Below, piece by piece: positions 1-10,335 of a stretch of DNA of 10,335 nt. Position 1 is the stretch's first letter; each line of letters opens with the position of its first letter. The DNA comes from a virus. Its lineage: Duplodnaviria; Heunggongvirae; Uroviricota; Caudoviricetes. Under the pieces are notes generated by a model. The model made no database searches. It saw only the letters and a list, made by a program, of their open reading frames with translations, and was not told the DNA's origin. The stretch lies in IMG/VR virus record IMGVR_UViG_2609460059_000005; one strand, 5' to 3'. Made by a program: the position numbers and the translations under genes.

Positions 1-69
1 ACCATCAATTTTACCTTTTGGTAAAATAGTGTCTTCAACACTGAGAATCACACCTTTGATCTTGCTCAT
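1..69 (-). CDS. Partial CDS (N-terminus only; gene continues past the left edge), hypothetical protein immediately downstream of the DprA-like gene
   Basis: ATG at 69..67 on the minus strand, preceded by AAGGAAAAG (SD-like) and lying 9 nt after the stop of the 79..1059 gene. Visible translation is MSKIKGVILSVEDTILPKGKIDG, in frame to the window edge. Too short for family assignment. Confidence 0.4.
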   Translation of the reverse strand, partial: MSKIKGVILSVEDTILPKGKIDG

Positions 70-78
70 TTCTTTTCC

Positions 79-1059
79 TTAGAGATCTAAGCTCTGCTGT
101 GTTGGTTCTGCTCTCAGATTTAAATCTTCACTAAAAATATAATCCATAATTTCTTTCAATTCAGTTGGCATTAGAAAAGATAAAGATTTTCGATTTTCCT
201 CTGAAAAGCTCAATTCCGGTCTTAAATTATATGTATTAGGTAAGTACGGATTAGCAATTTTCTTCGAATATTTATAAGCATATTCAACTGTGTGAGCAGT
301 ACCGCTTTTTATCTTCCACTCCACAGGAATAAGAGATGTGCACAGCGCAGCTTGAATTCTATTGCGTCTTACAAAATTTTCAGCGCTATAAATTTGGTCA
401 GGCAAATATTCAGTGACAATTGCACCTCCGCTTAAAACTATTTGATTGTAGAGATTTTTAGATCCCTTGGGATATTCTACAAAAATCCCGTTACCTAACA
501 CTGCAATTGTAGGTATCCCATAACGAATAGATTCATAATGGCATGATTGGTCAATCCCAGTAGCTAAACCACTTACAGTAACTATATCTTTTTCATACAA
601 CCCAGATACAATTAGTTTAACCAGAAAAATGCCATCATCTGTTGGCTTTCGCGTACCAACGATTGCAATTGATTTCTTATTAAGAATATCTTGATTCCCA
701 TGAACAAAAAGCCAAAAAGGAGGATCACTTATATTCTTTAAATTAGTTGGGAAAGTAGGTTGATCAAAAAAGGTTAGAACAATTCCTTTTTTATTTAATT
801 CTCTCGCTCGTTCTAATCCTTTCGCCCACAACTCTTGTTGAAATTCCTCCCACGCGATATCTTTGGGTAACGCAACCCTTAGATATCCAGCCAAAGCATC
901 AGCTGAACTAGCTTTTAAAAGATTTTTAAACCCTAGTTTGGATTCGTATATTTTACGGAGAGTCCAATAACCAACACCTTTTAAGCAGGTCAACGCAAGA
1001 AATGCTATGATTTCATTTTTCCAAAACTCTCTAATTTCAGTGTAATCTTTATCTTCCAT
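79..1059 (-). CDS. DprA/Smf-like (SLOG/Rossmann-fold) protein, 326 aa, in AT-rich cargo DNA
   Basis: Provided ORF. N-terminal segment LALTCLKGVGYWTLRKIYESKLGF resembles the DprA SAM/HhH-like domain. Core has SIAIVGTRKPT, VSGLATGIDQSCH, TIAVLGNGIFVEYP, RRNRIQAALC and KSGTAHTVEYA, matching the DprA Rossmann-fold pattern from memory. Composition is much more AT-rich than the adjacent sid/delta/primase block. Confidence 0.65.
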   Translation of the reverse strand: MEDKDYTEIREFWKNEIIAFLALTCLKGVGYWTLRKIYESKLGFKNLLKASSADALAGYLRVALPKDIAWEEFQQELWAKGLERARELNKKGIVLTFFDQPTFPTNLKNISDPPFWLFVHGNQDILNKKSIAIVGTRKPTDDGIFLVKLIVSGLYEKDIVTVSGLATGIDQSCHYESIRYGIPTIAVLGNGIFVEYPKGSKNLYNQIVLSGGAIVTEYLPDQIYSAENFVRRNRIQAALCTSLIPVEWKIKSGTAHTVEYAYKYSKKIANPYLPNTYNLRPELSFSEENRKSLSFLMPTELKEIMDYIFSEDLNLRAEPTQQSLDL

Positions 1060-1448
1060 TTTTTTGCCTTATAGATTACAACTCACGCAATACTAATAAC
1101 AAAAATAATCATATTGTAGACATGTTATAAATAACATTTTAGCATCCATTTGTGAAGAGGCATCTTCTTACCTTTCCACGTTCTACAATCGCTAACTTAG
1201 TATGTCTTGTAACTCTTTTTGTCGTTTAACTACCATCCTCTCATACTCCCTGATTCCACTTATGAACCCAATCAATACACAGGCAGCAGTTTTTCTTCTT
1301 TCTGCGGTTGATAGAACGATATATCAGCTTTTGGTGGTACCAAAGATTCTATTCATAAATTTATCTCGCAAGTGATCAAACACACATACTCTTTCAACTT
1401 CTTTACTCAGCGCGCGCAGCCCCGCCCGCCTGCCCGCTTCGCTTAACA

Positions 1449-1580
1449 GAATGGTTTTCATGCACCCCGTAAATCGTCTCAGGAGCCGCCACACAAGGGC
1501 TTTCGCGTCAAAAACGGCGCATGAGACTCATGCGTTTTCATGCACCATAGACATGCACTCATGCGCTCTCAGGCCAGCCA
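1449..1580. repeat. Imperfect ~80-bp duplicated non-coding unit (GTTTTCATGCACC ... CTCAGG ... ACTCATGCG) with an internal palindrome CGCATGAG-A-CTCATGCG
   Basis: GTTTTCATGCACC occurs at about 1453-1465 and 1533-1545; ACTCATGCG at about 1522-1530 and 1556-1564; inverted repeat at 1513-1530. No ORF of 60 aa or more covers this segment. Confidence 0.5.
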
Positions 1581-1592
1581 GGAAAAAGGCGT

Positions 1593-1619
1593 AAAAAATC
1601 CCGGTACAGTACCGGGATT
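1593..1619 (-). terminator. Rho-independent terminator downstream of the Ogr/Delta-like gene
   Basis: Perfect 10-bp inverted repeat ATCCCGGTAC-a-GTACCGGGAT (1598-1618). On the minus strand it is followed by a run of six U residues (plus-strand A-run 1593-1598). It lies about 20 nt after the stop at 1640. Confidence 0.6.
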
Positions 1620-1639
1620 ACGTGGGCATTTTATGTTGA

Positions 1640-1912
1640 TCAGACAGGGATTTGCTGACGGCTTGATAACTTTGATGCAGAGCCATAGCGATTGAGCGTT
1701 TTCTTTTGCTTTTCAGGCTCTTCCGGTTCATCTGATTCCTGTTCATTGCGCCGGGGTTTCATAATTATCGTATCCACACTTTCCAGTGCGGTAAATGTGC
1801 AGGAACATTCAAGATTCTGGCACTGATACCATGAGCGTTTAACCGATGGTGCTTCATAGGCGGAGGTTCTGGCGTGTGCCGTAGTGCCGCATTCGGGACA
1901 TTTAAGTGCCAT
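1640..1912 (-). CDS. Ogr/Delta-family zinc-finger late-gene transcriptional activator (P4 Delta-like, single domain), 90 aa
   Basis: MALKCPECGTTAHARTSAY...YQCQNLECSCTFTALES matches the C-x2-C ... AHARTS ... QCQN-x2-CS-x-TF signature of P2 Ogr / P4 Delta. SD GGAGG lies 7 nt upstream. Start overlaps the stop of the upstream gene (TGATG). Confidence 0.85.
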   Translation of the reverse strand: MALKCPECGTTAHARTSAYEAPSVKRSWYQCQNLECSCTFTALESVDTIIMKPRRNEQESDEPEEPEKQKKTLNRYGSASKLSSRQQIPV

Positions 1913-2673
1913 CAGATACCCTCCGCGGCTCGGTTACGTTTTTGCAGTTCTTCACGTTCCTGCCGGATCTTCATTTTATGAAGGGCCGCCGGAGAGGGAA
2001 GTTTGCGGAAATCAGCAAGGGCAGCATAATCCGGCGCAACACCTGCCAGTTTAAATACCGGGTCCTGTTCCGGCATCGCAGCGTTAGTAAGAGCCGGTTT
2101 GGTGATATGTTTGTGAATAAATTCTTTCAGTACTGTGTCCGGGTCATTAACTGAATTCACCACACCCACAACGGCACTGGCTTCCCGCCCCATTGTGGTT
2201 TTGAGCAGGCTCAGTGTCTGGATTAACGCCTTACCATGCGACTGCATGAAGTCTTCCCAGATTTGCTTTGCGCGAATTTCCACAAGGGTGTTATGTGCGC
2301 TGATATACTGCCCGGCTAATTTCCCGGCCTCCTGCGGTAATAAGGCATTTTCGCTTTCCTGAGCTGCCAGCAGTTCATCAAAATCCTCAAGCGTTTCTCG
2401 TCCCAGCGCAATTTCCGTGCGCAGTTTTTTCATTTCCTTTGAGACTACGCCCTGACTTTCACGAAACAGCGTGCGCCATTCCTCATTCAGCGCGTTAGTC
2501 GTGGCTTCCATTTCAGCGCGGCGCTGGCGGATTGTCGCAATATTATCTGCTGCCGCTTTTTGCTGACGACGTGCTTCAAGCCATGCGTTTCTGGTTGTGT
2601 TCAGGGTTTCCAGTGCCCGCTGCGTTACAGCCGGAAAAGTGGAAAGGCTGGTATTCTCTGCGGTGTTGTTCAT
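1912..2673 (-). CDS. Putative Sid-like capsid size determination (external scaffold) protein, 253 aa
   Basis: Provided ORF with SD AGGAG 6 nt upstream. Alpha-helical, charged, low-complexity composition. Immediately precedes and is translationally coupled to the Ogr/Delta homologue, as in the P4 sid-delta pair, and size is close to P4 Sid. Family assignment rests on context and recalled similarity, not a search. Confidence 0.5.
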   Translation of the reverse strand: MNNTAENTSLSTFPAVTQRALETLNTTRNAWLEARRQQKAAADNIATIRQRRAEMEATTNALNEEWRTLFRESQGVVSKEMKKLRTEIALGRETLEDFDELLAAQESENALLPQEAGKLAGQYISAHNTLVEIRAKQIWEDFMQSHGKALIQTLSLLKTTMGREASAVVGVVNSVNDPDTVLKEFIHKHITKPALTNAAMPEQDPVFKLAGVAPDYAALADFRKLPSPAALHKMKIRQEREELQKRNRAAEGI

Positions 2674-2706
2674 GACTTCTCCTGTCGGGTTGCTTCGTTA
2701 CGTCAA

Positions 2707-2726
2707 TTGTGTCGTGGCTGACACAA
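2707..2726. promoter_or_regulatory. Dyad-symmetric element TTGTGTC-N6-GACACAA upstream of the sid-like gene
   Basis: Perfect 7-bp inverted arms at 2707-2713 and 2720-2726. It contains TGT-N12-ACA, the pattern described for Ogr/Delta-activated late promoters of P2/P4. Its centre is only about 43 nt from the sid ATG, closer than the canonical -55 position. Confidence 0.35.
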
Positions 2727-2848
2727 GCGCACTATCGGTGCTCAGTGTGTGGTGGCTGGCACAACGGGCGTTTTCAGTTATTCAGGCGTGGCTATGAAAG
2801 CCAGCCAGATAAAAATGCCTCGGTTTCAGTCTGCGTTATGTCCCTGCA

Positions 2849-3047
2849 GTGGTGGAACAGGTGAAACATGTGTTACATCATTGTTTTATAAATTATTTAT
2901 ATGCACAGCACAGGTGGAACATCGCGGGTAACAAGGTGGAACAGCGGATCGGCTGGCGTTCCACCTGTTCCACCTCACTATTTCAAAAGGTGGAACAGGC
3001 TCAGCCCTTATAAAATACGGTTGTTCCACCTGTTTCACCTGTTACCC
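2849..3047. repeat. Iteron cluster, putative replication origin, immediately downstream of the primase gene
   Basis: At least 8 copies of GGTGGAACAG / CTGTTCCACC in both orientations (about 2851, 2913, 2935, 2958, 2965, 2989, 3022), plus degenerate copies GGTGAAACA (2860) and TGTTTCACC (3031). The motif resembles the P4 type I iteron TGTTCACC as recalled. No regular spacer structure. Confidence 0.6.
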
Positions 3048-3073
3048 TTAATAAATAAGACTCACGCAAAGCC

Positions 3074-5746
3074 TTAACCCGGCACCTCGCTGTTGAAGAC
3101 ATAGAGTCTGCGGGGATTCATCTCTGGCGGGCGAATGGTTGTCTGTAGCTTGCCATCGGTGGAGGGCAGCAGGTATCCACGATCCGCGCACAAACGCGCC
3201 ACCTTGCGCGGGTCAAATCCCCGGCAGATTTCTTTCCAGCCGGACGGCATGACGTAGAACGTGGTGACGGCTTCCGTGCCCTGCGCGGTACTCCCTTTCT
3301 CCACCCTGCGCCAGCCCACCATATTGCCGGGGCGGTTGCGCTCGTCGTGCCAGTCTGCAAAGCGGCTGTACTGATTCGCGGTAAAGAAACTGCGTACCTG
3401 CTCCAGCGCGGCAATATCTTCCTGATTGGCAGTATGCCCGCGATCTTTCAGCCATGCGTTCAGGCAGACGCGGGTTGCCCGCAGGGCTTCTCCCTCAGGC
3501 CAGCCGGTGATCCCCATACGGGTTGCCAGCTCGCCCGCCATCGCCACCAGTGCAAATCGGTTGACGGCCCGGCCCACCTGATTACCCGCATCTTTCGGGG
3601 TCAGCGCGGCGGTATATTCCTTCATCAGTGACTTTGCCTGTGACGTCAGCCCGTTAAGGTCAGCGGTCAGGGCTTTCAGCCACTCCCGGAACGGCGAACC
3701 GTAGTAGCTGGACGTGGCCCACTCCAGATGTTCCGCCAGTGCCTTGCCGCTGTCGAAGCCGTGCAGCTCCTCAAATACGCCAAATTTCCCGGAATCGCTG
3801 GGGATCTGGATCATCCTGACTTCCATCCCGGCAAAGGTACGCTCACCAGCTTTTGCCGCATGTTCGGTCAGTGACAGCTCGCCGGTTGAAAAGAACAGCA
3901 GCCGCCACTGCTTACGGGTGCGCAGCTCACCGTCCGTACCGGCACGGCCCTTGCCCTGACCGTTTGCCAGCATGTAGGCGATATTGCCTGCCTCGCGTCC
4001 GTCCACCTCCCGGATCTCATCGAGCATCATGGCGGCATCGTTGCGGCGGCTGGCGCATCCCTCCAGCGCGTTGCCGGTTGCCCGCCACGTCTGCCAGTAG
4101 TCAGGCCCGCCGCAGACGGAGGTTGCCGCTTTCATTGTGGTGGTCTTACCGTCCGTCGATTCCCCCTTGAGGTGATAGCCGCCGCCGTCCATACCAACCA
4201 ACCGTAACAGGGGGGCAGCAAACGCCAGACTGACGGCAAACGCCACGCGGGAGTTGCCGGTGCAGTAGCGGGAAACGTGCTCCCGCCATTCCTCCGTTGT
4301 GCCCGACACGCGGAAATCGCGACCCTGCACGGAAGTGGTCTGGAGAATGACACCCTCTGCACCTTCACCGCTGACCTCATCCTGCAGGACGTAAACCTGA
4401 CCATGCCAGCCGGTGCGGCTGACGCAGGTCACGCGGCGTTCCGGTTTACAAAGAGAGATATATTCCATAAGGCGTGCGCGGGCCTCACCGGTGGTGCTGA
4501 TATAGGACAGCCCGTTGACCAGCAGTACCCGGCGCAGCTCCTCACCGCTGCCGCTCAGCATTTCCATCGGCATCGCCCAGCGGCGGCGCTCACCCCACGT
4601 ATCTTCCCACTCCAGCAGTCGCCCGAAGTTACCGCCATCAGCATCGCAGGTGATTGCCGTTACGCGCAGCGGGTTGCATATTTTGACGTTCTGGATTTCC
4701 GTTTCACCGTTGCGCTGTACCTGTTTTTCATACCAGAGATATTCCTGGGTTAGACGGAACCCGTGCGGCAGTTGCGTGCGGCCCTCCCCGCACAGCACCA
4801 GACCGTTGCGAAAGGCTTCACGGGCACGGTTAATACCGTGCTCCCGATGGAAATCATTCCAGTCGGCCTTGATCTCTCCCGGTGGCAGCGTCATCCAGCC
4901 GCCAACGGCTTTTGCCGCCCGTTCAGCAAAAGATCTGCCGGGATTCTCGCCCCCGTCCTGAAAATCGTTATCACCGGCGATGATAATTTTTACCTCAGGC
5001 CAGCGTGCCCGCAGCGCCTGTGCGACGTTGGGCAGGTTGCCAGCAGATATGGCAGCCACTACGCATCCGGCGGTGATCTGGCTCACCGTCAGTGCCGTGG
5101 CGTAACCTTCGGTAATCACCACCTGTACCGGTGGTTCAGACGGTAACGGGCTGAGCGCCACAAACGCGCCTTTCATCGTGCTGCCGGGCAGTATGCTTTT
5201 TTCACCCGTCGGGGCGATAAGCTGCGCACCGGTCACGGCTCCAGCGTTGGTCGTGAGCGGTAGCAGCAGGGAGCCGGCAGGGAAATCCTTACCGCTGATA
5301 TGCTGCACGCTCCCGGTCAGGGGGGCCGGGTATCCGGCGAACCCTTTTCCGGTCAGATAGGGGCTTTCTCCCGTATGGCTCTCTTTCATCAGCGCCGCCA
5401 CGGTAAGGTTCATGTCGCGTTTAGGAGCTTTTTGCCTGGCGGGCTTAACGGGCAATTTCTGCACATCCGGAATATTAAGCACCTGCGCCACCTCCTGCGC
5501 GGCCTTTCTGACACCGTAACCGGTCATGAGCTTAACCAGATCCAGACCATCACCATTGCCGCACTGGCTGCAAATCCACGTCCCGCGCCCGTCAAGGTCA
5601 TCGAGGCGAAAACGATCCTTGCCCCCACATTTCGGGCAGGGACCGTGTCTGCCGTTTTCAGGTACATCAATACGCAGCATCTGCAGAATGACGGGCCATT
5701 TCCCCCGCGCGGCGGCTGAAATCTGCGTAACCGTCTGTGTTGTCAT
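3074..5746 (-). CDS. Primase-helicase (P4 alpha-like): N-terminal Zn-ribbon, Toprim domain, C-terminal Walker A/B NTPase; 890 aa
   Basis: Zn-ribbon CPKCGG...CSQCGNG. Toprim motifs VVITEGYATA and IIIAGDNDFQDGGENPGR. Walker A GESTDGKTT and Walker B-like MMLDEIRE. SD GGGGGA upstream. Start overlaps the stop of the upstream ORF (ATGA). Confidence 0.9.
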   Translation of the reverse strand: MTTQTVTQISAAARGKWPVILQMLRIDVPENGRHGPCPKCGGKDRFRLDDLDGRGTWICSQCGNGDGLDLVKLMTGYGVRKAAQEVAQVLNIPDVQKLPVKPARQKAPKRDMNLTVAALMKESHTGESPYLTGKGFAGYPAPLTGSVQHISGKDFPAGSLLLPLTTNAGAVTGAQLIAPTGEKSILPGSTMKGAFVALSPLPSEPPVQVVITEGYATALTVSQITAGCVVAAISAGNLPNVAQALRARWPEVKIIIAGDNDFQDGGENPGRSFAERAAKAVGGWMTLPPGEIKADWNDFHREHGINRAREAFRNGLVLCGEGRTQLPHGFRLTQEYLWYEKQVQRNGETEIQNVKICNPLRVTAITCDADGGNFGRLLEWEDTWGERRRWAMPMEMLSGSGEELRRVLLVNGLSYISTTGEARARLMEYISLCKPERRVTCVSRTGWHGQVYVLQDEVSGEGAEGVILQTTSVQGRDFRVSGTTEEWREHVSRYCTGNSRVAFAVSLAFAAPLLRLVGMDGGGYHLKGESTDGKTTTMKAATSVCGGPDYWQTWRATGNALEGCASRRNDAAMMLDEIREVDGREAGNIAYMLANGQGKGRAGTDGELRTRKQWRLLFFSTGELSLTEHAAKAGERTFAGMEVRMIQIPSDSGKFGVFEELHGFDSGKALAEHLEWATSSYYGSPFREWLKALTADLNGLTSQAKSLMKEYTAALTPKDAGNQVGRAVNRFALVAMAGELATRMGITGWPEGEALRATRVCLNAWLKDRGHTANQEDIAALEQVRSFFTANQYSRFADWHDERNRPGNMVGWRRVEKGSTAQGTEAVTTFYVMPSGWKEICRGFDPRKVARLCADRGYLLPSTDGKLQTTIRPPEMNPRRLYVFNSEVPG

Positions 5747-6126
5747 ACTTCCCCCTGATGCAGCGCCACACCCGTGCTGCAGAAGTCATCAAAGGCCGCC
5801 GGAAGCGTGCGGTACAGCTCCGCCATCACTTCACAGCCGCGCACAGTCAGTACCGGCGGCGCGGTCAGCAATGATGGTTCCAGCATGTCAGTCAGCAGCG
5901 CCAGCGCCGCCGCTGCTCCCTGTGCTTCGCCATATTCGTTAATCAGTGCGCACTCAATATGCAGGGCAATGGCCATTTCAATACGTTCAACCGTCAGGCT
6001 GTGCGGACCATATTGATCGCAGCCGGTTTCAGTCAGCGCTTTCTGGCGCCATGCCGATGCAATAGCCCGCCGGTAAAGCGCAGTAGTCATTTCTGCCGGA
6101 AAAATAGAAACCTGCGGCTGGTTCAT
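5743..6126 (-). CDS. Hypothetical protein, 127 aa, in the primase operon
   Basis: Provided ORF. Strong SD AGGAGG 7 nt upstream. ATGA start/stop overlaps with both neighbouring genes indicate translational coupling. Confidence 0.6.
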   Translation of the reverse strand: MNQPQVSIFPAEMTTALYRRAIASAWRQKALTETGCDQYGPHSLTVERIEMAIALHIECALINEYGEAQGAAAALALLTDMLEPSLLTAPPVLTVRGCEVMAELYRTLPAAFDDFCSTGVALHQGEV

Positions 6127-6407
6127 TGGGTGCCTCCTTCAATCAGTGCGCAACTGTGTGCAATATCCGTCAAATCTGCCCGCAGGTACTCCATCAGCGC
6201 GGCAATGCCTGGCGCACAGCCTGCATCCAGCGTTCCGCCCTGAGACGGGTATTCAGAAAAGAGAAGCTGGAGCATGTCGCAGGCATTTCTTGCGCGAGTC
6301 AGCTTTCCGAAACCGTCCTCTGACAATCCATAGGCAAAAGCACCAGTATTGTGTTTTTCAGGCAAAGTGTGGCCCTGAGCACTGTTGTGCCCGTTTGAAA
6401 AATTCAT
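6123..6407 (-). CDS. Hypothetical protein, 94 aa, in the primase operon
   Basis: Provided ORF. SD GGAG upstream. Stop overlaps the start of the next gene (ATGA). Confidence 0.55.
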   Translation of the reverse strand: MNFSNGHNSAQGHTLPEKHNTGAFAYGLSEDGFGKLTRARNACDMLQLLFSEYPSQGGTLDAGCAPGIAALMEYLRADLTDIAHSCALIEGGTQ

Positions 6408-6438
6408 CGTGGATTACTCCGTTTTCAGCGGTGTTTTG

Positions 6439-6792
6439 TCAGAGAAACTTTGAATAGTGACTGTCGTCAGGTTCAGCAGAACGCCGTATGCTGCGCTCCC
6501 GCCAACGGGTAAATACCACAGACGGATGTAGTGTCAGAGAGCCACTACCGCCCTTCGGAGCTGGCGAAGGTTTAAAGAGCGGCGCATCAAACAGGCGCGT
6601 ATACCGCTGTTCAAACCATGCCAGAGGGCAGGAAGAAAGCTGGTTGTCGCTGTCATGACGTATCAGCACTTCACAGCTGAATTCAGGATTAACCAGCGCC
6701 ACGGAGGGCGAGGCTTCAATTAATCGGATGATTGTGACGGTCCAGCCACGTTCATGCTGCCAGCGTTCGCCGGGTTGCGGATAATTATGCAT
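6439..6792 (-). CDS. Hypothetical protein, about 117 aa, in the primase operon
   Basis: Start set at the internal Met (MHNYPQPGERW...) because GGAGGTG lies 5-6 nt upstream of it; the first ATG of the provided ORF at 6822 has no SD. Confidence 0.5.
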   Translation of the reverse strand: MHNYPQPGERWQHERGWTVTIIRLIEASPSVALVNPEFSCEVLIRHDSDNQLSSCPLAWFEQRYTRLFDAPLFKPSPAPKGGSGSLTLHPSVVFTRWRERSIRRSAEPDDSHYSKFL

Positions 6793-6961
6793 GTTCACCT
6801 CCGCAGGGAATGCGACCGGCAAAGCTCAGCACGTAGTCCGGGGCCAGTCTGCGCCGCGCTGAGCGCTCGTTATCTGCGGTGATCCTTAACATCACAGGAC
6901 AGGCATTGCGTTGACTGCGGTTGATCGCAGCAAATAACCAGGTACACTTCTTTTTAGCCAT
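6785..6961 (-). CDS. Small basic protein, 58 aa, first gene of the primase operon; possibly Icd/Ash-like
   Basis: Only the C-terminal part of the provided 245-aa ORF is taken as coding: ATG at 6961..6959 is preceded by GAGGAAACGAAG (SD GAGGA). Sequence is MAKKKCTWLFAAINRSQRNACPVMLRITADNERSARRRLAPDYVLSFAGRIPCGGEHA. The Icd/Ash-like label is from memory of small P4-type proteins and is weak. Confidence 0.4.
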   Translation of the reverse strand: MAKKKCTWLFAAINRSQRNACPVMLRITADNERSARRRLAPDYVLSFAGRIPCGGEHA

Positions 6962-7051
6962 CTTCGTTTCCTCATACAGCGGATTGGTCAGAGGCCCGGT
7001 TAGTGTTGCTGCACTGCCGGGCTTCGCCTTTTTCACCCTAGAACACTCAAG

Positions 7052-7130
7052 GTGTGGCCCACTATAAATATTAGGTGTGGCCCACGTCAATGCTTTTCTT
7101 TGTTCTTTTCCCGTGTATACTGTGGCCCAC
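7052..7130. promoter_or_regulatory. Divergent promoter region with three copies of the palindromic operator-like motif (G)TGTGGCCCAC
   Basis: GTGTGGCCCAC at 7052-7062 and 7075-7085, TGTGGCCCAC at 7121-7130. The core GTGG-C-CCAC is dyad-symmetric. Minus-strand sigma70-like promoter: -35 TTGACG (complement of 7085-7090) and -10 TATAGT (complement of about 7061-7066), with copy 2 in the spacer. Plus-strand -10 TATACT at 7115-7120, with copy 3 at the predicted start site. Confidence 0.5.
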
Positions 7131-7151
7131 CAAACATACGGAGATTCAGTA

Positions 7152-7337
7152 ATGGCTACCGGTACAAAGAATGCTAAATCACAAGCCTTAAAGGCACGAG
7201 TGCCACATGACGTAGTTGAAGCGATGGAAATGGTGAAAGAAGAGGACGAAAGTACGTCACAATTCATCATTACATCCATGCAAAGTGAGATCAAACGCCG
7301 CCAGCGCAGGAAAGTTAAGCCAGAGCAAGGAGGCTGA
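7152..7337 (+). CDS. Small putative DNA-binding regulator, 61 aa, ribbon-helix-helix-like
   Basis: Start taken at the internal ATG at 7152 with SD GGAG 8 nt upstream. Sequence MATGTKNAKSQALKARVPHDVVEAMEMVKEEDESTSQFIITSMQSEIKRRQRRK has a strand-helix-helix pattern. The operator repeats lie just upstream, suggesting autoregulation. Confidence 0.5.
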   Translation: MATGTKNAKSQALKARVPHDVVEAMEMVKEEDESTSQFIITSMQSEIKRRQRRKVKPEQGG

Positions 7338-7401
7338 ATAGAGAAGCTAACAGACGTTCTCTCAGGCTCCATGCTAATTTCAGTAAGCGACAATATTTTT
7401 A

Positions 7402-7433
7402 AGCCCACAAACTCAATATGTCGGGCTTTTTTA
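7402..7433 (+). terminator. Putative rho-independent terminator between the convergent small regulator and alpA
   Basis: AGCCC...GGGCT hairpin at 7402-7426 followed by TTTTTTATT. Sits between two convergent genes and may act in both directions. Confidence 0.4.
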
Positions 7434-7664
7434 TTAGTGATTTGCATGCCGTTCACCACGAGAGGCATATATTTGCTCTTGAATCCAGTGATCGACTTCG
7501 CTTTCAACAAATGAAATTGCACGAGTTCCTATTTTTACTGGGCGGGGAAATGTATTATTTGAAAGCTGTTTGTAAAGCCATGCCTTGCTACGCTGAACGC
7601 GTCTTAACACCTCTTTTGCTGAAATAAGAGTCTGATTATCTGAAAGGTTGTTTGCATATTCCAT
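7434..7664 (-). CDS. alpA: AlpA/Vis-family phage transcriptional regulator (excisionase-like HTH), about 76 aa
   Basis: Start set at the internal Met (MEYANNLSDNQ...) with SD GGAG 8 nt upstream. LISAKEVLRRVQRSKAWLYKQLSNNTFPRPVKIGTRAISFVESEVDHWI matches the AlpA-family pattern. Gene lies near a P4-type integrase, as is typical. Confidence 0.75.
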   Translation of the reverse strand: MEYANNLSDNQTLISAKEVLRRVQRSKAWLYKQLSNNTFPRPVKIGTRAISFVESEVDHWIQEQIYASRGERHANH

Positions 7665-7928
7665 CTTGTTACTCCGTGTTCTACTTAAGTTCACGGTGAC
7701 TTTAAACACTGAAAAAAAGTGATTCTAGTGATAATGGAATCTATTAATACAAACGCTGATTCTATTGAAACGTGATAGTTTCTACTGAAAAAAGAAATAA
7801 TGTTCATATGAAAGAACACGAGAAGAGGAAAACGCACAACAAAATAAAATCAATAAAATTCATATAGATAGCATTGCAGCACAAACAAATCATACGTTAG
7901 AAGGTATTATTGCGTTTTATCGATTCAT

Positions 7929-8000
7929 ATTACTCAGGGATTACCACAGTATTACACTGTATTACCCTCTATAGCCCCTTAGAGCCTCTTGTAGCCCCTT
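7929..8000. repeat. Helically phased short repeats: ATTAC four times at 10-11 bp spacing, then three tandem 10-bp units (ATAGCCCCTT / AGAGCCTCTT / GTAGCCCCTT)
   Basis: ATTAC at 7929, 7940, 7951, 7961. Tandem units at 7971-7980, 7981-7990, 7991-8000. Located in the AT-rich spacer between the 212-aa gene and alpA. Confidence 0.45.
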
Positions 8001-8033
8001 CTAATGAGAGATATACAGATAGTAATAATAAAT

Positions 8034-8672
8034 TCACTCTCCGTATTTTATAATGTCTTTCCCCAGCTTTATTTTCTTATAGAACGTAGCTTTTTTAACT
8101 CCTTTCAATAGAATCTCATTCTCATTACAAAAAGAAACAATATCATTATATATAACACTATTATCGCTATAATTTCCCTTTCCATGTTTCTTAAGCAACT
8201 CAATTAGTAAGTAAATTAATTTACAACTATAATTATCCTCATCATCTTTTCTGTACTGCCCTCTGCCATTACTCCTTAACTTTTTACCAACTTCATATAA
8301 TTCACTTCCTCCTAGCATCATTAAAATATCGCCCCAATCTTTATTTTTTACTTGTTGTTGCAATGCGTTCTCAATTCTTTCCTTAATTTCAGGAGGTACA
8401 ATATCTTCCCTCTGAAAGATATAAGCGGCAGTTAATACTAAATTCGCCTCCACTTTTTGCGTGGCGGATATGTTTTTATATTCATTAATCAATTGTAGAT
8501 TTCTGGTTATTGCCTTTCTTAACCGAATAACCTCTTTTAATTGAATATCAGTCAATTCATCATTTTCGGTATCATAGTCAAAACCATTCATAGCAAGCGC
8601 CACTTCGTGCGGCGTAATGTACGTTAACCTATTAAAATAAAACAAATTATTATCAGATTGAGTGTTATTCAT
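8034..8672 (-). CDS. Hypothetical protein, 212 aa, AT-rich orphan gene between integrase and alpA
   Basis: Provided ORF. Strong SD GAGGAG 8 nt upstream. Starts 30 nt after the integrase stop. Clearly more AT-rich than its neighbours. No recognisable motifs. Confidence 0.65.
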   Translation of the reverse strand: MNNTQSDNNLFYFNRLTYITPHEVALAMNGFDYDTENDELTDIQLKEVIRLRKAITRNLQLINEYKNISATQKVEANLVLTAAYIFQREDIVPPEIKERIENALQQQVKNKDWGDILMMLGGSELYEVGKKLRSNGRGQYRKDDEDNYSCKLIYLLIELLKKHGKGNYSDNSVIYNDIVSFCNENEILLKGVKKATFYKKIKLGKDIIKYGE

Positions 8673-8702
8673 TTGAATCTCTCCTCAGTACCACAATGGT
8701 AA

Positions 8703-9965
8703 TTATTTTCCATGCACACGCGCAAAATCATATGGTGTGATAGATCCATTCTTGTTAGCATCAATGTAATCAGCCCACCATTGCAGCATTAATTTTCTTT
8801 CTTCAAGATATTCAGAAGTATGCATATATGAACCTTTCACGTTTTTTCGTTCAACGTGACTTAGCTGTCTTTCAATGGCATCATCATTCCATAGTTTCGA
8901 CTCACTTAGCGCACCACGCGCCATAGTTCTAAAACCATGCCCACATACTTCTGTCTTCGTATCATATCCCATTACACGTAAGGCGCTATTTACAGTATTT
9001 TCACTCATAACTTTTTTAGGATCATGATCGCTGGGAAATATAACCTCGCCTTTACCGCTCAAGGCATGTAAACGTTTAAAAATATCAAATGCTTGTTTGC
9101 TAAGCGGAACAATATGTTCAGTTTTCATCTTCATCCCACGCTCAGAGTGTTTTACGCCGGGAATAGGTTTACGAATTCCGGGTATCGTCCACTCGCTTCG
9201 TTCAAAGTTAACCTCACTCCAGCGAGCAAAACGCATCTCACTTGAACGAATAAATGTGAGTAGCGTTAATTCAACGGCAAGCCGTGTCATTAGTCGCCCT
9301 TTATAGCGTGATAGTCTTTCAAGAAACTCAGGGATTCTTTTTGGGGGTAGTGCTGGGTGATGGGTTGCCTTAACGCTTAAAAGCGCTCCAGCCATATCAC
9401 TGGCAGGATTTGATTCAAGAAGGTCATTCTGCACACCGAAACGCATAATTGCGGTTACGCGCTGCATCAGTCGCTGCGCAACATCATGTTTACCTGCCGC
9501 ATCAACAGCTTTGATCGGATTGAGAAGCTGGCTGGTTCTCAACATTCTGGCGTCAATTTGACCTATCGAGGGGAAAATATACTGCTCAAGCGTCAGCAGA
9601 ACGCGACGGCTATGATCTTCGCTCCAAGTTAGGTTACTTGCGTGCCATTGCCTTGCGATAGTTTCAAATAAATATGCCCCCTCAATTTCAGCTTGTGCCC
9701 CCTTTTGCTCAGCTTTGGGGTCAATGCCCTGAGACAACAATTTCTTTGCTGCATCACGCTTACCCCGAGCCTCAGCCAAAGTGATCGTCGGGTATACACC
9801 AAAAGCGAGCCGATCTTCCTTTTTGTCAGATGGGCGGCGATATTTCATGCGCCAATACTTGGAACCTTTTGGGGAGACTTCAAGATACAAGCCGCCTCCA
9901 TCAGCCATTTTATAGGCTTTCTCTTTCGGCTTTGCGGTCTCTATCTGGCGAGCATTGAGTTTCAT
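8703..9965 (-). CDS. int: P4-type tyrosine integrase (site-specific recombinase), about 420 aa
   Basis: Start set at the internal Met (MKLNARQIETAKPKEKAYKMADGGGLYLEV...), a typical P4-family integrase N-terminus. C-terminal catalytic region has HGFRTMARGAL and the Y-containing KGSYMHTSEY. Gene is adjacent to, and co-oriented with, the tRNA-Leu 3' end. Confidence 0.9.
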   Translation of the reverse strand: MKLNARQIETAKPKEKAYKMADGGGLYLEVSPKGSKYWRMKYRRPSDKKEDRLAFGVYPTITLAEARGKRDAAKKLLSQGIDPKAEQKGAQAEIEGAYLFETIARQWHASNLTWSEDHSRRVLLTLEQYIFPSIGQIDARMLRTSQLLNPIKAVDAAGKHDVAQRLMQRVTAIMRFGVQNDLLESNPASDMAGALLSVKATHHPALPPKRIPEFLERLSRYKGRLMTRLAVELTLLTFIRSSEMRFARWSEVNFERSEWTIPGIRKPIPGVKHSERGMKMKTEHIVPLSKQAFDIFKRLHALSGKGEVIFPSDHDPKKVMSENTVNSALRVMGYDTKTEVCGHGFRTMARGALSESKLWNDDAIERQLSHVERKNVKGSYMHTSEYLEERKLMLQWWADYIDANKNGSITPYDFARVHGK

Positions 9966-10019
9966 TTTGGGGGCACAAATCCTGATCGAATTGACATGCC
10001 CCCGATTATGCCCCCAAAA
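9965..10019. promoter_or_regulatory. Inverted repeat TTTTGGGGGCA ... TGCCCCCAAAA flanking the integrase start and 5' leader
   Basis: 11-bp arms at 9965-9975 and 10009-10019, with an extra TGCCCCC at 9997-10003. The left arm abuts the int ATG (9963-9965). No strong SD precedes the int start. Confidence 0.35.
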
Positions 10020-10129
10020 GAGGGTAGACCACAAGAGACCAACAAAGACCATGAAATACGGTAACTTGCTTGTTTTTAAGGATTTTTTCTGGATTTGTAG
10101 ACTTCAGGAAACGTCAAAAGAAGTGTTAA

Positions 10130-10214
10130 TGGTGCCGAAGGCCGGACTCGAACCGGCACGTATTTCTACGGTTGATTTTGAATCAACTGCGTCTACCGAT
10201 TTCGCCACTTCGGC
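10130..10214 (-). tRNA. leuX: tRNA-Leu (anticodon CAA), leuX-type
   Basis: Reverse complement reads GCCGAAGTGGCGAAATCGGTAGACGCAGTTGATTCAAAATCAACCGTAGAAATACGTGCCGGTTCGAGTCCGGCCTTCGGCACCA. It has a 7-bp acceptor stem, a CAA anticodon in a 7-nt loop, a long variable arm, a GGTTCGAGTCC T-arm and a CCA end. Confidence 0.9.
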
Positions 10215-10243
10215 ACTGAAGAGGTATGCGGAAAACGTTGTGG

Positions 10244-10271
10244 ATTATACCTGTCGCACGCCACCATGCAA
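10244..10271 (-). promoter_or_regulatory. Putative sigma70 promoter of the tRNA-Leu gene
   Basis: On the minus strand: -35 TTGCAT (complement of 10266-10271), 16-bp spacer, perfect -10 TATAAT (complement of 10244-10249), then a GC-containing discriminator about 30 nt before the mature tRNA 5' end. Confidence 0.45.
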
Positions 10272-10335
10272 GCGCCAGCTTGCTCGCATCTCGCTAAGTG
10301 CTGAAATTTTCAGCATTGCATACAGCGATGTGTAA

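What the first reader, a model, noticed from the sequence alone, without database searches (positions are those of the whole stretch)
1..1200. AT-rich DprA/SLOG-like gene with a closely linked partner gene, sitting where psu would be expected: candidate undescribed defence or toxin-antitoxin module
The 326-aa protein has a DprA-type SAM-like N-terminus and Rossmann core but lacks a long DprA C-terminal extension, and its composition is strikingly AT-rich against GC-rich sid/delta/primase DNA. A second gene starts 9 nt after its stop with its own SD and runs off the window. The module occupies the cargo position after delta, beyond a terminator and a cos-like tract. DprA/SLOG-like proteins have, as I recall, been reported as antitoxin-type partners in toxin-antitoxin defence pairs (ShosTA/PsyrTA class), and satellite cargo sites are known hotspots for anti-phage systems. 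The 23 visible residues of the partner (MSKIKGVILSVEDTILPKGKIDG) faintly resemble the N-terminal segment of type I phosphoribosyltransferases, but that is not evidence on its own.
Basis: partly seen in the sequence, partly recalled or inferred. Interest (0 to 1): 0.8.

Follow-up and report, generated by a model that had tools for sequence, protein, structure and literature searches.

The report
ShosTA defence cassette in P4 satellite
The AT-rich DprA-like gene and its cut-off neighbour are the antitoxin (ShosA) and the start of the toxin (ShosT) of ShosTA, a published and structurally characterised anti-phage toxin-antitoxin system, sitting in the known defence-gene hotspot of a P4-like phage satellite, so the finding is real but not new.

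Summary
Window 79-1059 (-) encodes a 326-aa DprA-fold protein in 32-37% GC DNA, next to a 50-65% GC P4-like satellite backbone. A second gene starts 9 nt after its stop and runs off the window.

The module is not undescribed. The 326-aa protein matches PADLOC ShosA (E = 1e-89) and the crystallised ShosA of E. coli APEC O1 (E = 1e-65, 44% identity), and it fails NCBI's true-DprA cut-offs. Two metagenome contigs carry the same cassette (ShosA 324-325/326 identical). There it is followed, 9 nt on, by an intact 409-aa ShosT (PADLOC E = 3e-94) whose first 23 residues equal the window's fragment.

The cassette, with its own conserved promoter-like element, lies just past the cos-like tract at the end of a psu-less P4-like element at tRNA-Leu (leuX). 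Near-identical backbones carry other cargo at this position. Rousset et al. 2022 list HAD/PRTase+DprA pairs in their table of P4 loci.

The inferred mechanism follows the published one: a type IV toxin-antitoxin, abortive-infection system. It is a distinct ShosA clade whose dimer contact is a D/E-R/K pair rather than hydrophobic.

The source contig ends inside shosT, so whether the toxin is intact in this strain is unknown. Interest is low.

The parts
1..69 (-). First 23 codons of shosT (toxin; the start of its HAD-like hydrolase domain). Truncated because the source contig ends here.
   Evidence: ATG at 69-67, 9 nt after the shosA stop. The 23 residues are identical to the N-terminus of the intact 409-aa ShosT in L021 and L022, whose ShosA is 324-325/326 identical to the window's. 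That ShosT scores PADLOC ShosT E = 2.6e-94 and PDB 8ZVB ShosT E = 5.4e-89. The source contig JFFL01000051.1 ends 1 nt beyond window position 1.
79..1059 (-). shosA, the DprA-like antitoxin (326 aa): SAM-like N-terminal domain, Rossmann/DprA domain and a short C-terminal tail.
   Evidence: PADLOC ShosA E = 1.1e-89, against PsyrA E = 1e-21. Pfam DNA_processg_A E = 1e-57. PDB ShosA 9VZO/8ZVA E = 1.4e-65, 43.8% identity over 267 aa. NCBIfam DprA equivalogs fall below their cut-offs. The essential ssDNA-binding arginines R137 and R232 are present and invariant in 115 homologues.
1128..1156 (-). Promoter-like element of the cassette: TTCACA, 17 nt, TG-n-TATTTA (an inference, not tested).
   Evidence: The TTCACA hexamer is invariant in five cassettes from E. 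coli, Enterobacter and Klebsiella; the TG-n-TATTTA box is kept in the four closer cassettes and differs in the divergent L009. DNA homology to the other ShosTA cassettes begins at window 1157, at the -35 box. The generic promoter scan did not call it, because its -10 hexamer ends in A.
1158..1405 (.). Lineage-specific AT-rich spacer between the satellite backbone and the ShosTA cassette.
   Evidence: Not matched in L008, L018, L019 or in backbone relatives L010 and L011; present only in same-type contigs L012 and L016. Only short ORFs are present.
1413..1441 (.). G+C-rich cos-like tract marking the conserved/variable boundary of the satellite.
   Evidence: [quoted passage not shown] Rousset et al. 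describe the hotspot as adjacent to cos. Its identity as cos was not verified.
1590..1620 (-). Intrinsic-terminator-like hairpin plus U-run after delta.
   Evidence: RNA fold dG = -15.8 kcal/mol, z = -3.0, followed by UUUUUU.
1640..1912 (-). delta (Ogr/Delta zinc-finger late activator), the last backbone gene.
   Evidence: Pfam Ogr_Delta E = 3e-16.
1912..2673 (-). sid-type capsid-size gene. Pfam and PGAP label it 'Psu', but there is no separate psu in this lineage.
   Evidence: 87% identical to the gene in the Sid position of L008 and only 23% identical to L008 Psu. Weak Pfam Psu hit, E = 2.8e-8.
3074..5746 (-). alpha primase/helicase (Zn-ribbon, TOPRIM, DUF927) of the P4-like backbone.
   Evidence: Gene calls with Pfam families in L001; annotated as such in L010.
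8703..10052 (-). Tyrosine integrase. This is the ORF extent; relatives are annotated as 420 aa.
   Evidence: Pfam Arm-DNA-bind_3, Phage_int_M and Phage_integrase; annotation in L010.
10130..10214 (-). tRNA-Leu(CAA), leuX, the attachment site of the element.
   Evidence: ARAGORN. Same chromosomal context (ahr, yjgR, lptFG) in E. coli L010 and L011.

Best explanation
Window 1-1157 (minus strand) is a ShosTA toxin-antitoxin anti-phage cassette: promoter, shosA, then the first 23 codons of shosT. It is the terminal cargo of a psu-less P4-like satellite integrated at leuX in E. coli.

Mechanism, inferred from homology to the characterised E. coli APEC O1 system:
- ShosT has an N-terminal HAD-like pyrophosphatase domain and a C-terminal PRPP-binding phosphoribosyltransferase domain. 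It perturbs purine and nucleotide metabolism, which causes DNA damage or duplication, filamentation and death.
- ShosA is a dimeric, ssDNA-binding, DprA-like protein. It does not bind ShosT (type IV TA). It counteracts the damage through RecA-linked recombination and repair.
- ShosA is intrinsically unstable. When an infecting phage shuts off host transcription (T7 Gp0.7), or supplies excess ssDNA that competes with the ShosA-RecA interaction, ShosA activity falls. The pre-existing ShosT then kills or arrests the cell before the phage completes its cycle (abortive infection).
- Because it is carried by a satellite, it would protect the host and satellite against competing phages.

Shown here: the family identity of both genes, gene order and spacing, conservation of the tested key residues, the hotspot position, and horizontal spread.

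Inferred: all biochemical activities, the defence phenotype for this clade, and the promoter.
For: Family identity
- ShosA: PADLOC E = 1.1e-89; PDB ShosA E = 1.4e-65.
- The window-type full-length partner in L021/L022 (ShosA 324-325/326 identical, same 9-nt spacer, first 23 aa identical) is ShosT: PADLOC E = 2.6e-94 and PDB 8ZVB E = 5.4e-89.

Conserved functional residues
- The PRPP-site residues shown to be needed for toxicity are conserved in the window-type ShosT: D318/D319, R274, K269, H232 (residues).
- ShosA keeps the two arginines whose single mutation abolishes antitoxin function (R137, R232), and K198, the equivalent of RecA-contact K200 (residues).

Gene order and position
- The order shosA then shosT, with tight spacing, recurs in E. 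coli, Enterobacter, Klebsiella and Shewanella; it recurs with slightly wider spacing (15-38 nt) in Xanthomonas, Pseudomonas and Halomonas.
- The same backbone (97% identical) carries an ABC-three-component system or a portal-like pair at the same spot.
- In E. coli PSJ-36 an attR-like copy of the tRNA 3' end lies about 180 nt after shosT.

Literature
- A DprA+PRTase pair from APEC O1 protects against T7 and lambda.
- P4 loci with HAD/Pribosyltran + DNA_processg_A are tabulated in Table S1.
- Mechanism: PMC11961720 and PMC12961424.
Against: - Identity to the only characterised system is just 44% (ShosA) and 40% (ShosT), and no member of this clade has been tested to my knowledge.
- Some residues that were tested in the APEC system differ here. 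The dimer pair L181/F182 is R179/Y180. The RecA contact R206 is Y204. The pyrophosphatase residue R56 is W.
- shosT is truncated by the contig end, so the toxin may be interrupted or absent in this strain.
- The two published trigger models (transcription shut-off versus ssDNA sensing) are not reconciled.
- The promoter is only a consensus-like match.
Confidence: 0.88

Rival explanations
1. In this particular strain the toxin gene is disrupted or missing. ShosA would then be an orphan antitoxin (a remnant, or retained as an anti-addiction or anti-defence factor) rather than half of a working defence system.
For: The source contig and an independent Logan contig both end at shosT codon 24. Many members of the 90% cluster are truncated at contig ends, at recurrent positions. 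Toxin genes are common targets of inactivation (general knowledge).
Against: No IS or other foreign sequence is visible at the contig ends. Intact cassettes of the same type exist (L021, L022). The breaks occur at several positions, which is also compatible with assembly forks or low coverage of AT-rich DNA.
Confidence: 0.1
2. The pair acts mainly as an addiction or stabilisation module that keeps the satellite in its host, with little anti-phage effect.
For: It is a bona fide toxin-antitoxin architecture with an unstable antitoxin in the characterised homologue. It sits on a mobile element next to attR.
Against: The homologous system gives a 10^6-fold reduction of T7 plating and protects against T7 and lambda. 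The slot it occupies is populated by defence systems in sister elements. The two roles are not mutually exclusive.
Confidence: 0.07
3. The 326-aa protein is a genuine DprA, a recombination mediator for natural transformation or for satellite or phage DNA processing, and the downstream gene is an unrelated nucleotide-metabolism enzyme.
For: Pfam DNA_processg_A E = 1e-57. RefSeq names it 'DNA-processing protein DprA'.
Against: NCBIfam DprA equivalog models score 160 bits against a cut-off of 191, and 130 against 495. The ShosA model scores about 300 bits. The best S. pneumoniae DprA match is only E = 1e-26, against E = 1e-65 for ShosA. The gene always travels with shosT. It lies in AT-rich mobile cargo, not in the conserved smf/def chromosomal context.
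Confidence: 0.02
4. It belongs to the related PsyrTA system (a DprA/SLOG-like antitoxin with a RecQ-helicase-type toxin) rather than to ShosTA.
For: There is a secondary PADLOC hit to PsyrA, E = 1.1e-21.
Against: The ShosA model scores about 223 bits higher than PsyrA. The partner is a HAD+PRTase ShosT protein with no helicase domain.
Confidence: 0.01

Closest known systems
ShosTA of E. coli APEC O1 (P2-like prophage hotspot; structures 8ZVA/9VZO for ShosA and 8ZVB-D/9W2P/9W2Q for ShosT; Pu et al. 2025, PMC11961720; Yang et al. 2026, PMC12961424; 'DprA+PRTase' pFR105 of Rousset et al. 2022)
   Same: - Two-gene operon, shosA then shosT.
- ShosA has a SAM-like domain plus a DprA Rossmann domain, with R139 and R234 equivalents conserved.
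- ShosT has a HAD-like hydrolase domain plus a PRTase domain, with the PRPP-site residues D331/D332, R285, K280 and H240 conserved.
- It is cos-proximal cargo of a P2/P4-system mobile element.
   Different: - Only 44% (ShosA) and 40% (ShosT) identity.
- Carried by a P4-like satellite rather than by the P2-like helper.
- ShosA dimer contact L144/L181 is replaced by D142/R179, F182 by Y180, RecA-contact R206 by Y204, and R261 by E259.
- ShosT R56 (pyrophosphatase site) is replaced by W, and the protein is 15 aa shorter.
- This clade has not been tested experimentally.
HAD/Pribosyltran + DNA_processg_A loci in the P4 psu-int hotspot (Rousset et al. 2022, Table S1: WP_021501220 + WP_001393214), and the E. 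coli PSJ-36, R12, Enterobacter and Klebsiella satellites found here (L008, L009, L018-L020)
   Same: The same domain pair as the last cargo after delta and cos of a P4-like satellite. The L008, L018 and L019 cassettes are 75-77% identical at the DNA level from the promoter onwards, with ShosA 80-82% identical.
   Different: - Different backbones and att sites: thrW with sid-psu-delta in L008, and capsid-encoding satellites in L009, L018 and L019.
- I could not compare sequences with the two WP accessions in Table S1, so whether they belong to the same clade is unknown.
PsyrTA (DprA/SLOG-like antitoxin PsyrA with a RecQ-like helicase toxin)
   Same: The antitoxin shares the DprA/SLOG Rossmann domain (PADLOC PsyrA E = 1e-21). 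It is also a TA-type defence system.
   Different: The toxin is unrelated. PsyrA is longer (398-position model), and the match covers only residues 79-263.
Chromosomal DprA/Smf (TIGR00732; S. pneumoniae 3UQZ)
   Same: Fold and the ssDNA-binding arginines; a RecA-linked function has been reported for ShosA.
   Different: Scores below the equivalog cut-offs. There is no C-terminal winged-helix extension. It sits in a mobile AT-rich context and is obligately linked to shosT.

Membership tests
ShosTA (DefenseFinder/PADLOC definition; Millman 2022, Rousset 2022) | An antitoxin matching the ShosA profile (DprA-like, SAM plus Rossmann domains) | tested here: met
   PADLOC ShosA E = 1.1e-89 and 2.4e-70. 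The alignment to crystallised ShosA spans residues 12-278, E = 1.4e-65.
ShosTA (DefenseFinder/PADLOC definition; Millman 2022, Rousset 2022) | An adjacent co-oriented toxin matching the ShosT profile (HAD-like hydrolase plus PRTase) | tested here: inconclusive
   Only 23 codons are in the window, too short for any HMM hit. Those 23 residues, the 9-nt spacer and the ShosA sequence (99% identical) match cassettes L021 and L022, where the gene is a full 409-aa ShosT (PADLOC E = 2.6e-94). The feature is met for this cassette type but is not verifiable for this strain, because the contig ends there.
ShosTA (DefenseFinder/PADLOC definition; Millman 2022, Rousset 2022) | PRPP-binding catalytic residues required for ShosT toxicity (D331/D332, R285, K280, H240) | tested here: met
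   They are conserved as D318/D319, R274, K269 and H232 in the window-type ShosT of L022 and in L008 and P0135. The residues come from PMC11961720 and PMC12961424. The test was done on relatives, not on the truncated window gene.
ShosTA (DefenseFinder/PADLOC definition; Millman 2022, Rousset 2022) | ssDNA-binding arginines essential for ShosA antitoxin function (R139, R234) | tested here: met
   The window has R137 and R232, invariant in 115/115 homologues. R261 is E259 here, but the R261E mutant retains function in the published system.
ShosTA (DefenseFinder/PADLOC definition; Millman 2022, Rousset 2022) | ShosA homodimerisation through the L181/F182 interface, and RecA binding through K200/R206 | tested here: inconclusive
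   K198 is conserved. L181/F182 become R179/Y180, with the partner L144 becoming D142 (D/E plus R/K in 114/115 homologues), which suggests a salt bridge in place of the hydrophobic contact. R206 becomes Y204. Whether the protein dimerises or binds RecA cannot be judged from sequence.
ShosTA (DefenseFinder/PADLOC definition; Millman 2022, Rousset 2022) | ShosT is toxic alone, ShosA neutralises it without binding it (type IV TA), and the pair protects against phage | not testable with these tools
   This requires expression and plaque assays. It is known only for the APEC O1 homologue.
P4-like satellite cos-proximal defence hotspot (Rousset et al. 2022) | Variable cargo immediately next to cos, after the sid/psu/delta late operon, on an otherwise conserved P4-like backbone | tested here: met
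   The backbone from 1413 to 10335 is 97.4% identical to E. coli APEC E19025, and identity ends at 1406-1413. Sister elements carry an ABC-three-component system or a portal-like pair at the same spot. The core genes int, alpA, alpha, sid and delta are present. The cos identity itself is unverified.
DprA/Smf (housekeeping recombination mediator, TIGR00732 / PRK10736 equivalogs) | Score at or above the curated equivalog cut-off | tested here: not met
   160 bits against a cut-off of 191.15, and 129.8 bits against 495.
PsyrTA | A PsyrA-type antitoxin paired with a RecQ-like helicase toxin | tested here: not met
   PsyrA is only a secondary hit (E = 1e-21, against 1e-89 for ShosA). The partner is ShosT and has no helicase domain.

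The most novel reading that the evidence does not exclude
The window-type ShosA clade is the larger clade in the databases, yet it differs from the only characterised ShosA at tested interface residues. A D/E-R/K pair replaces the hydrophobic L144-L181' dimer contact in 114 of 115 homologues. In this cassette, Tyr also replaces the RecA-contact R206. This clade might therefore neutralise ShosT, or sense infection, in a somewhat different way: a different oligomer stability, weaker RecA dependence, or a different trigger range, possibly tuned to the satellite's life with its P2-type helper. Separately, the recurrent contig breaks at fixed positions in shosA and shosT could reflect real structural heterogeneity at this locus rather than assembly noise.
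Probability: 0.12. Interest if true: 0.35.

Novelty: already known. Interest (0 to 1): 0.12.

Why it matters
It matters little as a discovery. ShosTA is a catalogued defence system with solved structures, and standard tools (PADLOC, DefenseFinder) would label this locus once the full shosT is present. The P4 cos-proximal hotspot is also well documented.

Three modest points are still worth recording:
- The locus documents a near-identical ShosTA cassette (about 99% at the protein level) circulating among E. coli, Salmonella, Klebsiella, Proteus and Enterobacter on P4-like satellites.
- The characterised APEC O1 system represents a minority sequence type. The common clade has a different dimer-interface chemistry, so mutational conclusions from the published structures may not transfer directly.
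- RefSeq's 'DprA' and 'phage polarity suppression protein' labels in these elements are misleading. They are ShosA and Sid respectively.

Tried and rejected
- Extending the window leftwards in the source assembly: impossible. Contig JFFL01000051.1 and a Logan contig both end 1 nt beyond window position 1.
- Near-identity search of the cargo in 5,426 complete E. coli genomes: nothing left of 1406. A distant search found 12 genomes at 65-76% identity.
- IMG/VR scan for the exact shosT start: no hit. The plasmid collection gave only distant DprA-like hits. The metagenome scan finally yielded the intact cassette.
- IS insertion as the cause of the contig breaks: no foreign sequence at the contig ends. 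The cause remains unresolved.
- Verifying cos: the remembered P2/P4 19-mer was not found within 3 mismatches, and the delta-cos region has no blastn match in the phage collection.
- The generic promoter scan did not call the conserved upstream element. It was found by alignment instead.
- A long att direct repeat in L008 and L019 was not found at seed 12. A targeted search found an 11-nt exact core within a 17/18 attR-like match in L008.
- Structure prediction and fold search were not run. Sequence matches to the crystal structures at E = 1e-65 and 1e-89 made them unnecessary.
- True DprA and PsyrTA were considered and rejected.
Full report
1. THE OBSERVATION

The window is a P4-like satellite with all of its genes on the minus strand.
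- tRNA-Leu(CAA) lies at 10130-10214.
- The backbone genes are a tyrosine integrase (8703-10052), an AlpA-type regulator, a Zn-ribbon/TOPRIM/DUF927 primase (3074-5746), a 253-aa Sid-type protein (1912-2673) and a 90-aa Ogr/Delta protein (1640-1912).
- Left of delta, GC drops from about 0.5-0.65 to 0.32-0.37.
- In that AT-rich stretch, ORF 79-1059 (-) encodes 326 aa with a strong Pfam DNA_processg_A match (E = 1.1e-57).
- Nine nucleotides after its TAA stop (GGAAAAGAA, containing an AGGA Shine-Dalgarno-like motif), a second ORF starts at 69-67 and reads MSKIKGVILSVEDTILPKGKIDG up to the window edge.
- After delta there is a strong hairpin with a U-run (dG = -15.8 kcal/mol, z = -3.0).
- A G+C-rich tract lies at 1413-1441.

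2. WHAT IT IS

The DprA-like protein is ShosA.
- It matches PADLOC's two ShosA models at E = 1.1e-89 and 2.4e-70, against only E = 1e-21 for PsyrA.
- Its best PDB matches are the two crystal structures of ShosA from E. coli APEC O1 (9VZO and 8ZVA, E = 1.4e-65). The alignment spans residues 12-278, so it covers both the SAM-like and the Rossmann domains. True DprA proteins follow at E = 1e-26 or worse.
- NCBI's DprA equivalog models score below their curated cut-offs: 160 bits against 191, and 130 against 495. It is not a housekeeping dprA orthologue.

The partner gene could not be read in the source assembly. Contig JFFL01000051.1 (GCA_000599765.2, E. coli) ends one base beyond the window. Relatives settle its identity.
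- In twelve complete E. coli genomes, a cassette with 65-76% DNA identity has shosA followed by a gene annotated as a phosphoribosyltransferase or HAD hydrolase. Those proteins hit PADLOC ShosT at E = 1e-93 and the ShosT crystal structure 8ZVB at E = 1e-87.
- A DNA-pattern scan of metagenome contigs found two contigs, L021 and L022, with this exact cassette type. Their ShosA is 324-325 of 326 residues identical to the window's, and the spacer is the same 9 nt. An intact 409-aa ORF follows, whose first 23 residues are identical to the window fragment.
- That ORF is ShosT: PADLOC E = 2.6e-94 and PDB 8ZVB E = 5.4e-89, with a Pfam HAD-type hydrolase match in its N-terminal part.
- The 23 visible residues therefore belong to the N-terminal HAD-like hydrolase domain, which is residues 1-164 in the crystallised protein.

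3. CONTEXT

The backbone from 1413 to 10335 is 97.4% identical to a leuX-integrated element of E. coli APEC E19025 and is widespread in E. coli. Identity stops at 1406-1413, at the G+C-rich tract.

Sister elements with the same backbone carry different cargo at this position. APEC E19025 has an ABC-three-component system, and strain 21AR0133 has a portal-like gene plus a hypothetical gene. This is the cos-adjacent hotspot of P4-like satellites described by Rousset et al. 2022 and revisited in a 2026 preprint.

Other ShosTA-carrying satellites show the same placement.
- In E. coli PSJ-36, the ShosTA pair follows sid-psu-delta in a thrW-integrated satellite, and an attR-like copy of the tRNA 3' end lies about 180 nt after shosT.
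- In Klebsiella and Enterobacter, the same pair follows delta in capsid-encoding P4-like satellites and is followed by chromosomal genes.
- In L022, the window-type cassette follows Sid-Delta. It is followed by an 11-nt fragment of the tRNA-Leu 3' end and then a second integrase, which indicates a tandem island.

The cassette behaves as a unit.
- DNA homology to the other ShosTA cassettes begins at window 1157, at the -35 box of a promoter-like element: TTCACA, 17 nt, TG-n-TATTTA, at 1156-1128. The element's promoter function is an inference.
- The 250 nt between this cassette and the cos-like tract are lineage-specific.
- The 90% identity cluster of the window's ShosA has 198 members. They are named from E. 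coli, Salmonella, Klebsiella, Proteus and Enterobacter and are about 99% identical to each other, which points to recent horizontal spread.

On psu: the 253-aa protein is 87% identical to the gene in the Sid position of PSJ-36 and only 23% identical to its Psu. This lineage simply lacks psu. The cargo lies beyond the cos-like tract rather than in psu's place.

4. MECHANISM (inferred by homology)

For the APEC O1 system the following has been shown.
- ShosT has an N-terminal pyrophosphatase-like hydrolase domain and a C-terminal PRTase domain.
- PRPP binding (D331/D332, R285, K280, H240) is required for toxicity.
- ShosT perturbs purine metabolism and causes DNA duplications and filamentation.
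- ShosA does not bind ShosT. It binds ssDNA, and R139 and R234 are essential for that.
- ShosA dimerises and binds RecA through K200 and R206.
- ShosA is intrinsically unstable.
- T7 Gp0.7-driven transcription shut-off, and possibly excess ssDNA, release ShosT toxicity. Plating of T7 falls about 10^6-fold.

In the window cassette type:
- All five PRPP-site residues are conserved in ShosT: D318/D319, R274, K269 and H232.
- ShosA keeps R137, R232 and K198.

I therefore assign the same type IV toxin-antitoxin, abortive-infection mechanism with high confidence for family membership. Confidence is lower for the exact phenotype, because this clade is only 44% (ShosA) and 40% (ShosT) identical to the tested system and has not been tested itself.

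5. DIFFERENCES WORTH NOTING

- Across 115 homologues of the window's ShosA, the hydrophobic dimer contact L144-L181' of the APEC protein is D/E-R/K in 114 sequences (D142 and R179 here). F182 is Y or F.
- R261 is mostly acidic in this clade (E259 here), which is consistent with the published finding that R261E is tolerated.
- The RecA contact R206 is R or K in most homologues but Y204 in this cassette.
- In ShosT, the pyrophosphatase-site residue R56 is W. The R56A mutation only marginally reduced toxicity in the published work.
- Taken together, these features define a separate and apparently more common ShosA clade, not a broken protein.

6. NOVELTY

- ShosTA was named as a TA pair in 2012.
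- It was validated as a defence system in 2022, including the 'DprA+PRTase' pair from the P2 hotspot.
- It now has two structure-and-mechanism papers.
- Table S1 of Rousset et al., which lists P4-encoded loci, already contains 'HAD_2/Hydrolase/Pribosyltran + DNA_processg_A' pairs, with more than 20 entries in the stored part.
- The finding is therefore already known in kind and in location.

7. UNRESOLVED

The window's contig and a Logan contig both stop at shosT codon 24. Six other contigs from different samples and assemblers all stop at shosA nucleotide 964/965, and other cluster members stop at residue 270 or 312.

No IS sequence is visible at these ends. Possible causes are a second near-identical copy in the same genomes, population heterogeneity, or poor coverage of AT-rich DNA. 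I could not distinguish between them, so the integrity of shosT in the source strain is unknown.

The identity of the cos site also remains unverified.

Noticed in passing
window 8034-8672 (-): A second AT-rich gene (about 30% GC, 212 aa) lies between the integrase and alpA. It has no Pfam, PADLOC or NCBIfam match, only PHROG 30524 of unknown function (E = 1e-112). It is conserved in the 97%-identical backbone relatives, but a different gene occupies this position in E. coli PSJ-36. This may be a second, integrase-proximal accessory slot.
   Followed up: partly
window 1912-2673 (-): The Sid-type capsid-size protein gets a weak Pfam Psu hit, and RefSeq names its orthologues 'phage polarity suppression protein'. 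It is 87% identical to the Sid-position gene of PSJ-36 and only 23% identical to that element's real Psu. This satellite lineage has no psu, and sid and delta overlap by one base.
   Followed up: yes
window 1 (contig end); L012-L017 ends, equivalent to window ~95: Draft assemblies break at recurrent, exact positions inside this cassette: shosT codon 24 in two contigs, shosA nt 964/965 in six contigs from different samples and assemblers, and aa 270 in six more. No IS sequence is visible at the ends. The cause is unknown: a second copy, heterogeneity, or AT-rich low coverage.
   Followed up: partly
window 79-1059 (-), residues D142, R179, Y180, Y204, E259: The window's ShosA clade replaces the hydrophobic dimer contact of the crystallised APEC O1 ShosA (L144-L181') with a D/E-R/K pair in 114 of 115 homologues. 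This cassette also has Tyr at the RecA-contact position R206.
   Followed up: partly
window 1128-1156 (-): A promoter-like element (TTCACA, 17 nt, TG-n-TATTTA) is conserved in ShosTA cassettes from E. coli, Enterobacter and Klebsiella. In the window, a 7-bp inverted repeat (ATGTTAT-TT-ATAACAT) overlaps the -10 region. Cassette homology between satellites begins exactly at the -35 box.
   Followed up: partly
L022 6800-9110 (metagenome contig SKEP01000178.1): Downstream of the intact window-type shosT there is an 11-nt fragment of the tRNA-Leu 3' end and then a second complete tyrosine integrase (421 aa). This suggests islands integrated in tandem at leuX. It would explain why Rousset et al. could define the hotspot as 'between psu and int', even though the satellite's own int is at the other end of the element.
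   Followed up: partly
L010 5650-6820 and L011 5458-6879 (same slot as window 1-1405): Near-identical satellite backbones carry an ABC-three-component system (with a DUF2326 protein) in E. coli APEC E19025, and a 'phage portal protein' plus a hypothetical gene in strain 21AR0133, at the position occupied here by ShosTA.
   Followed up: no
window 7152-7337 (+): This is the only backbone gene on the opposite strand. It is a small protein of the YlcI/YnfO family by the RefSeq annotation of relatives, located between alpA and the Icd-like gene, and may belong to the satellite's immunity or regulatory region.
   Followed up: no
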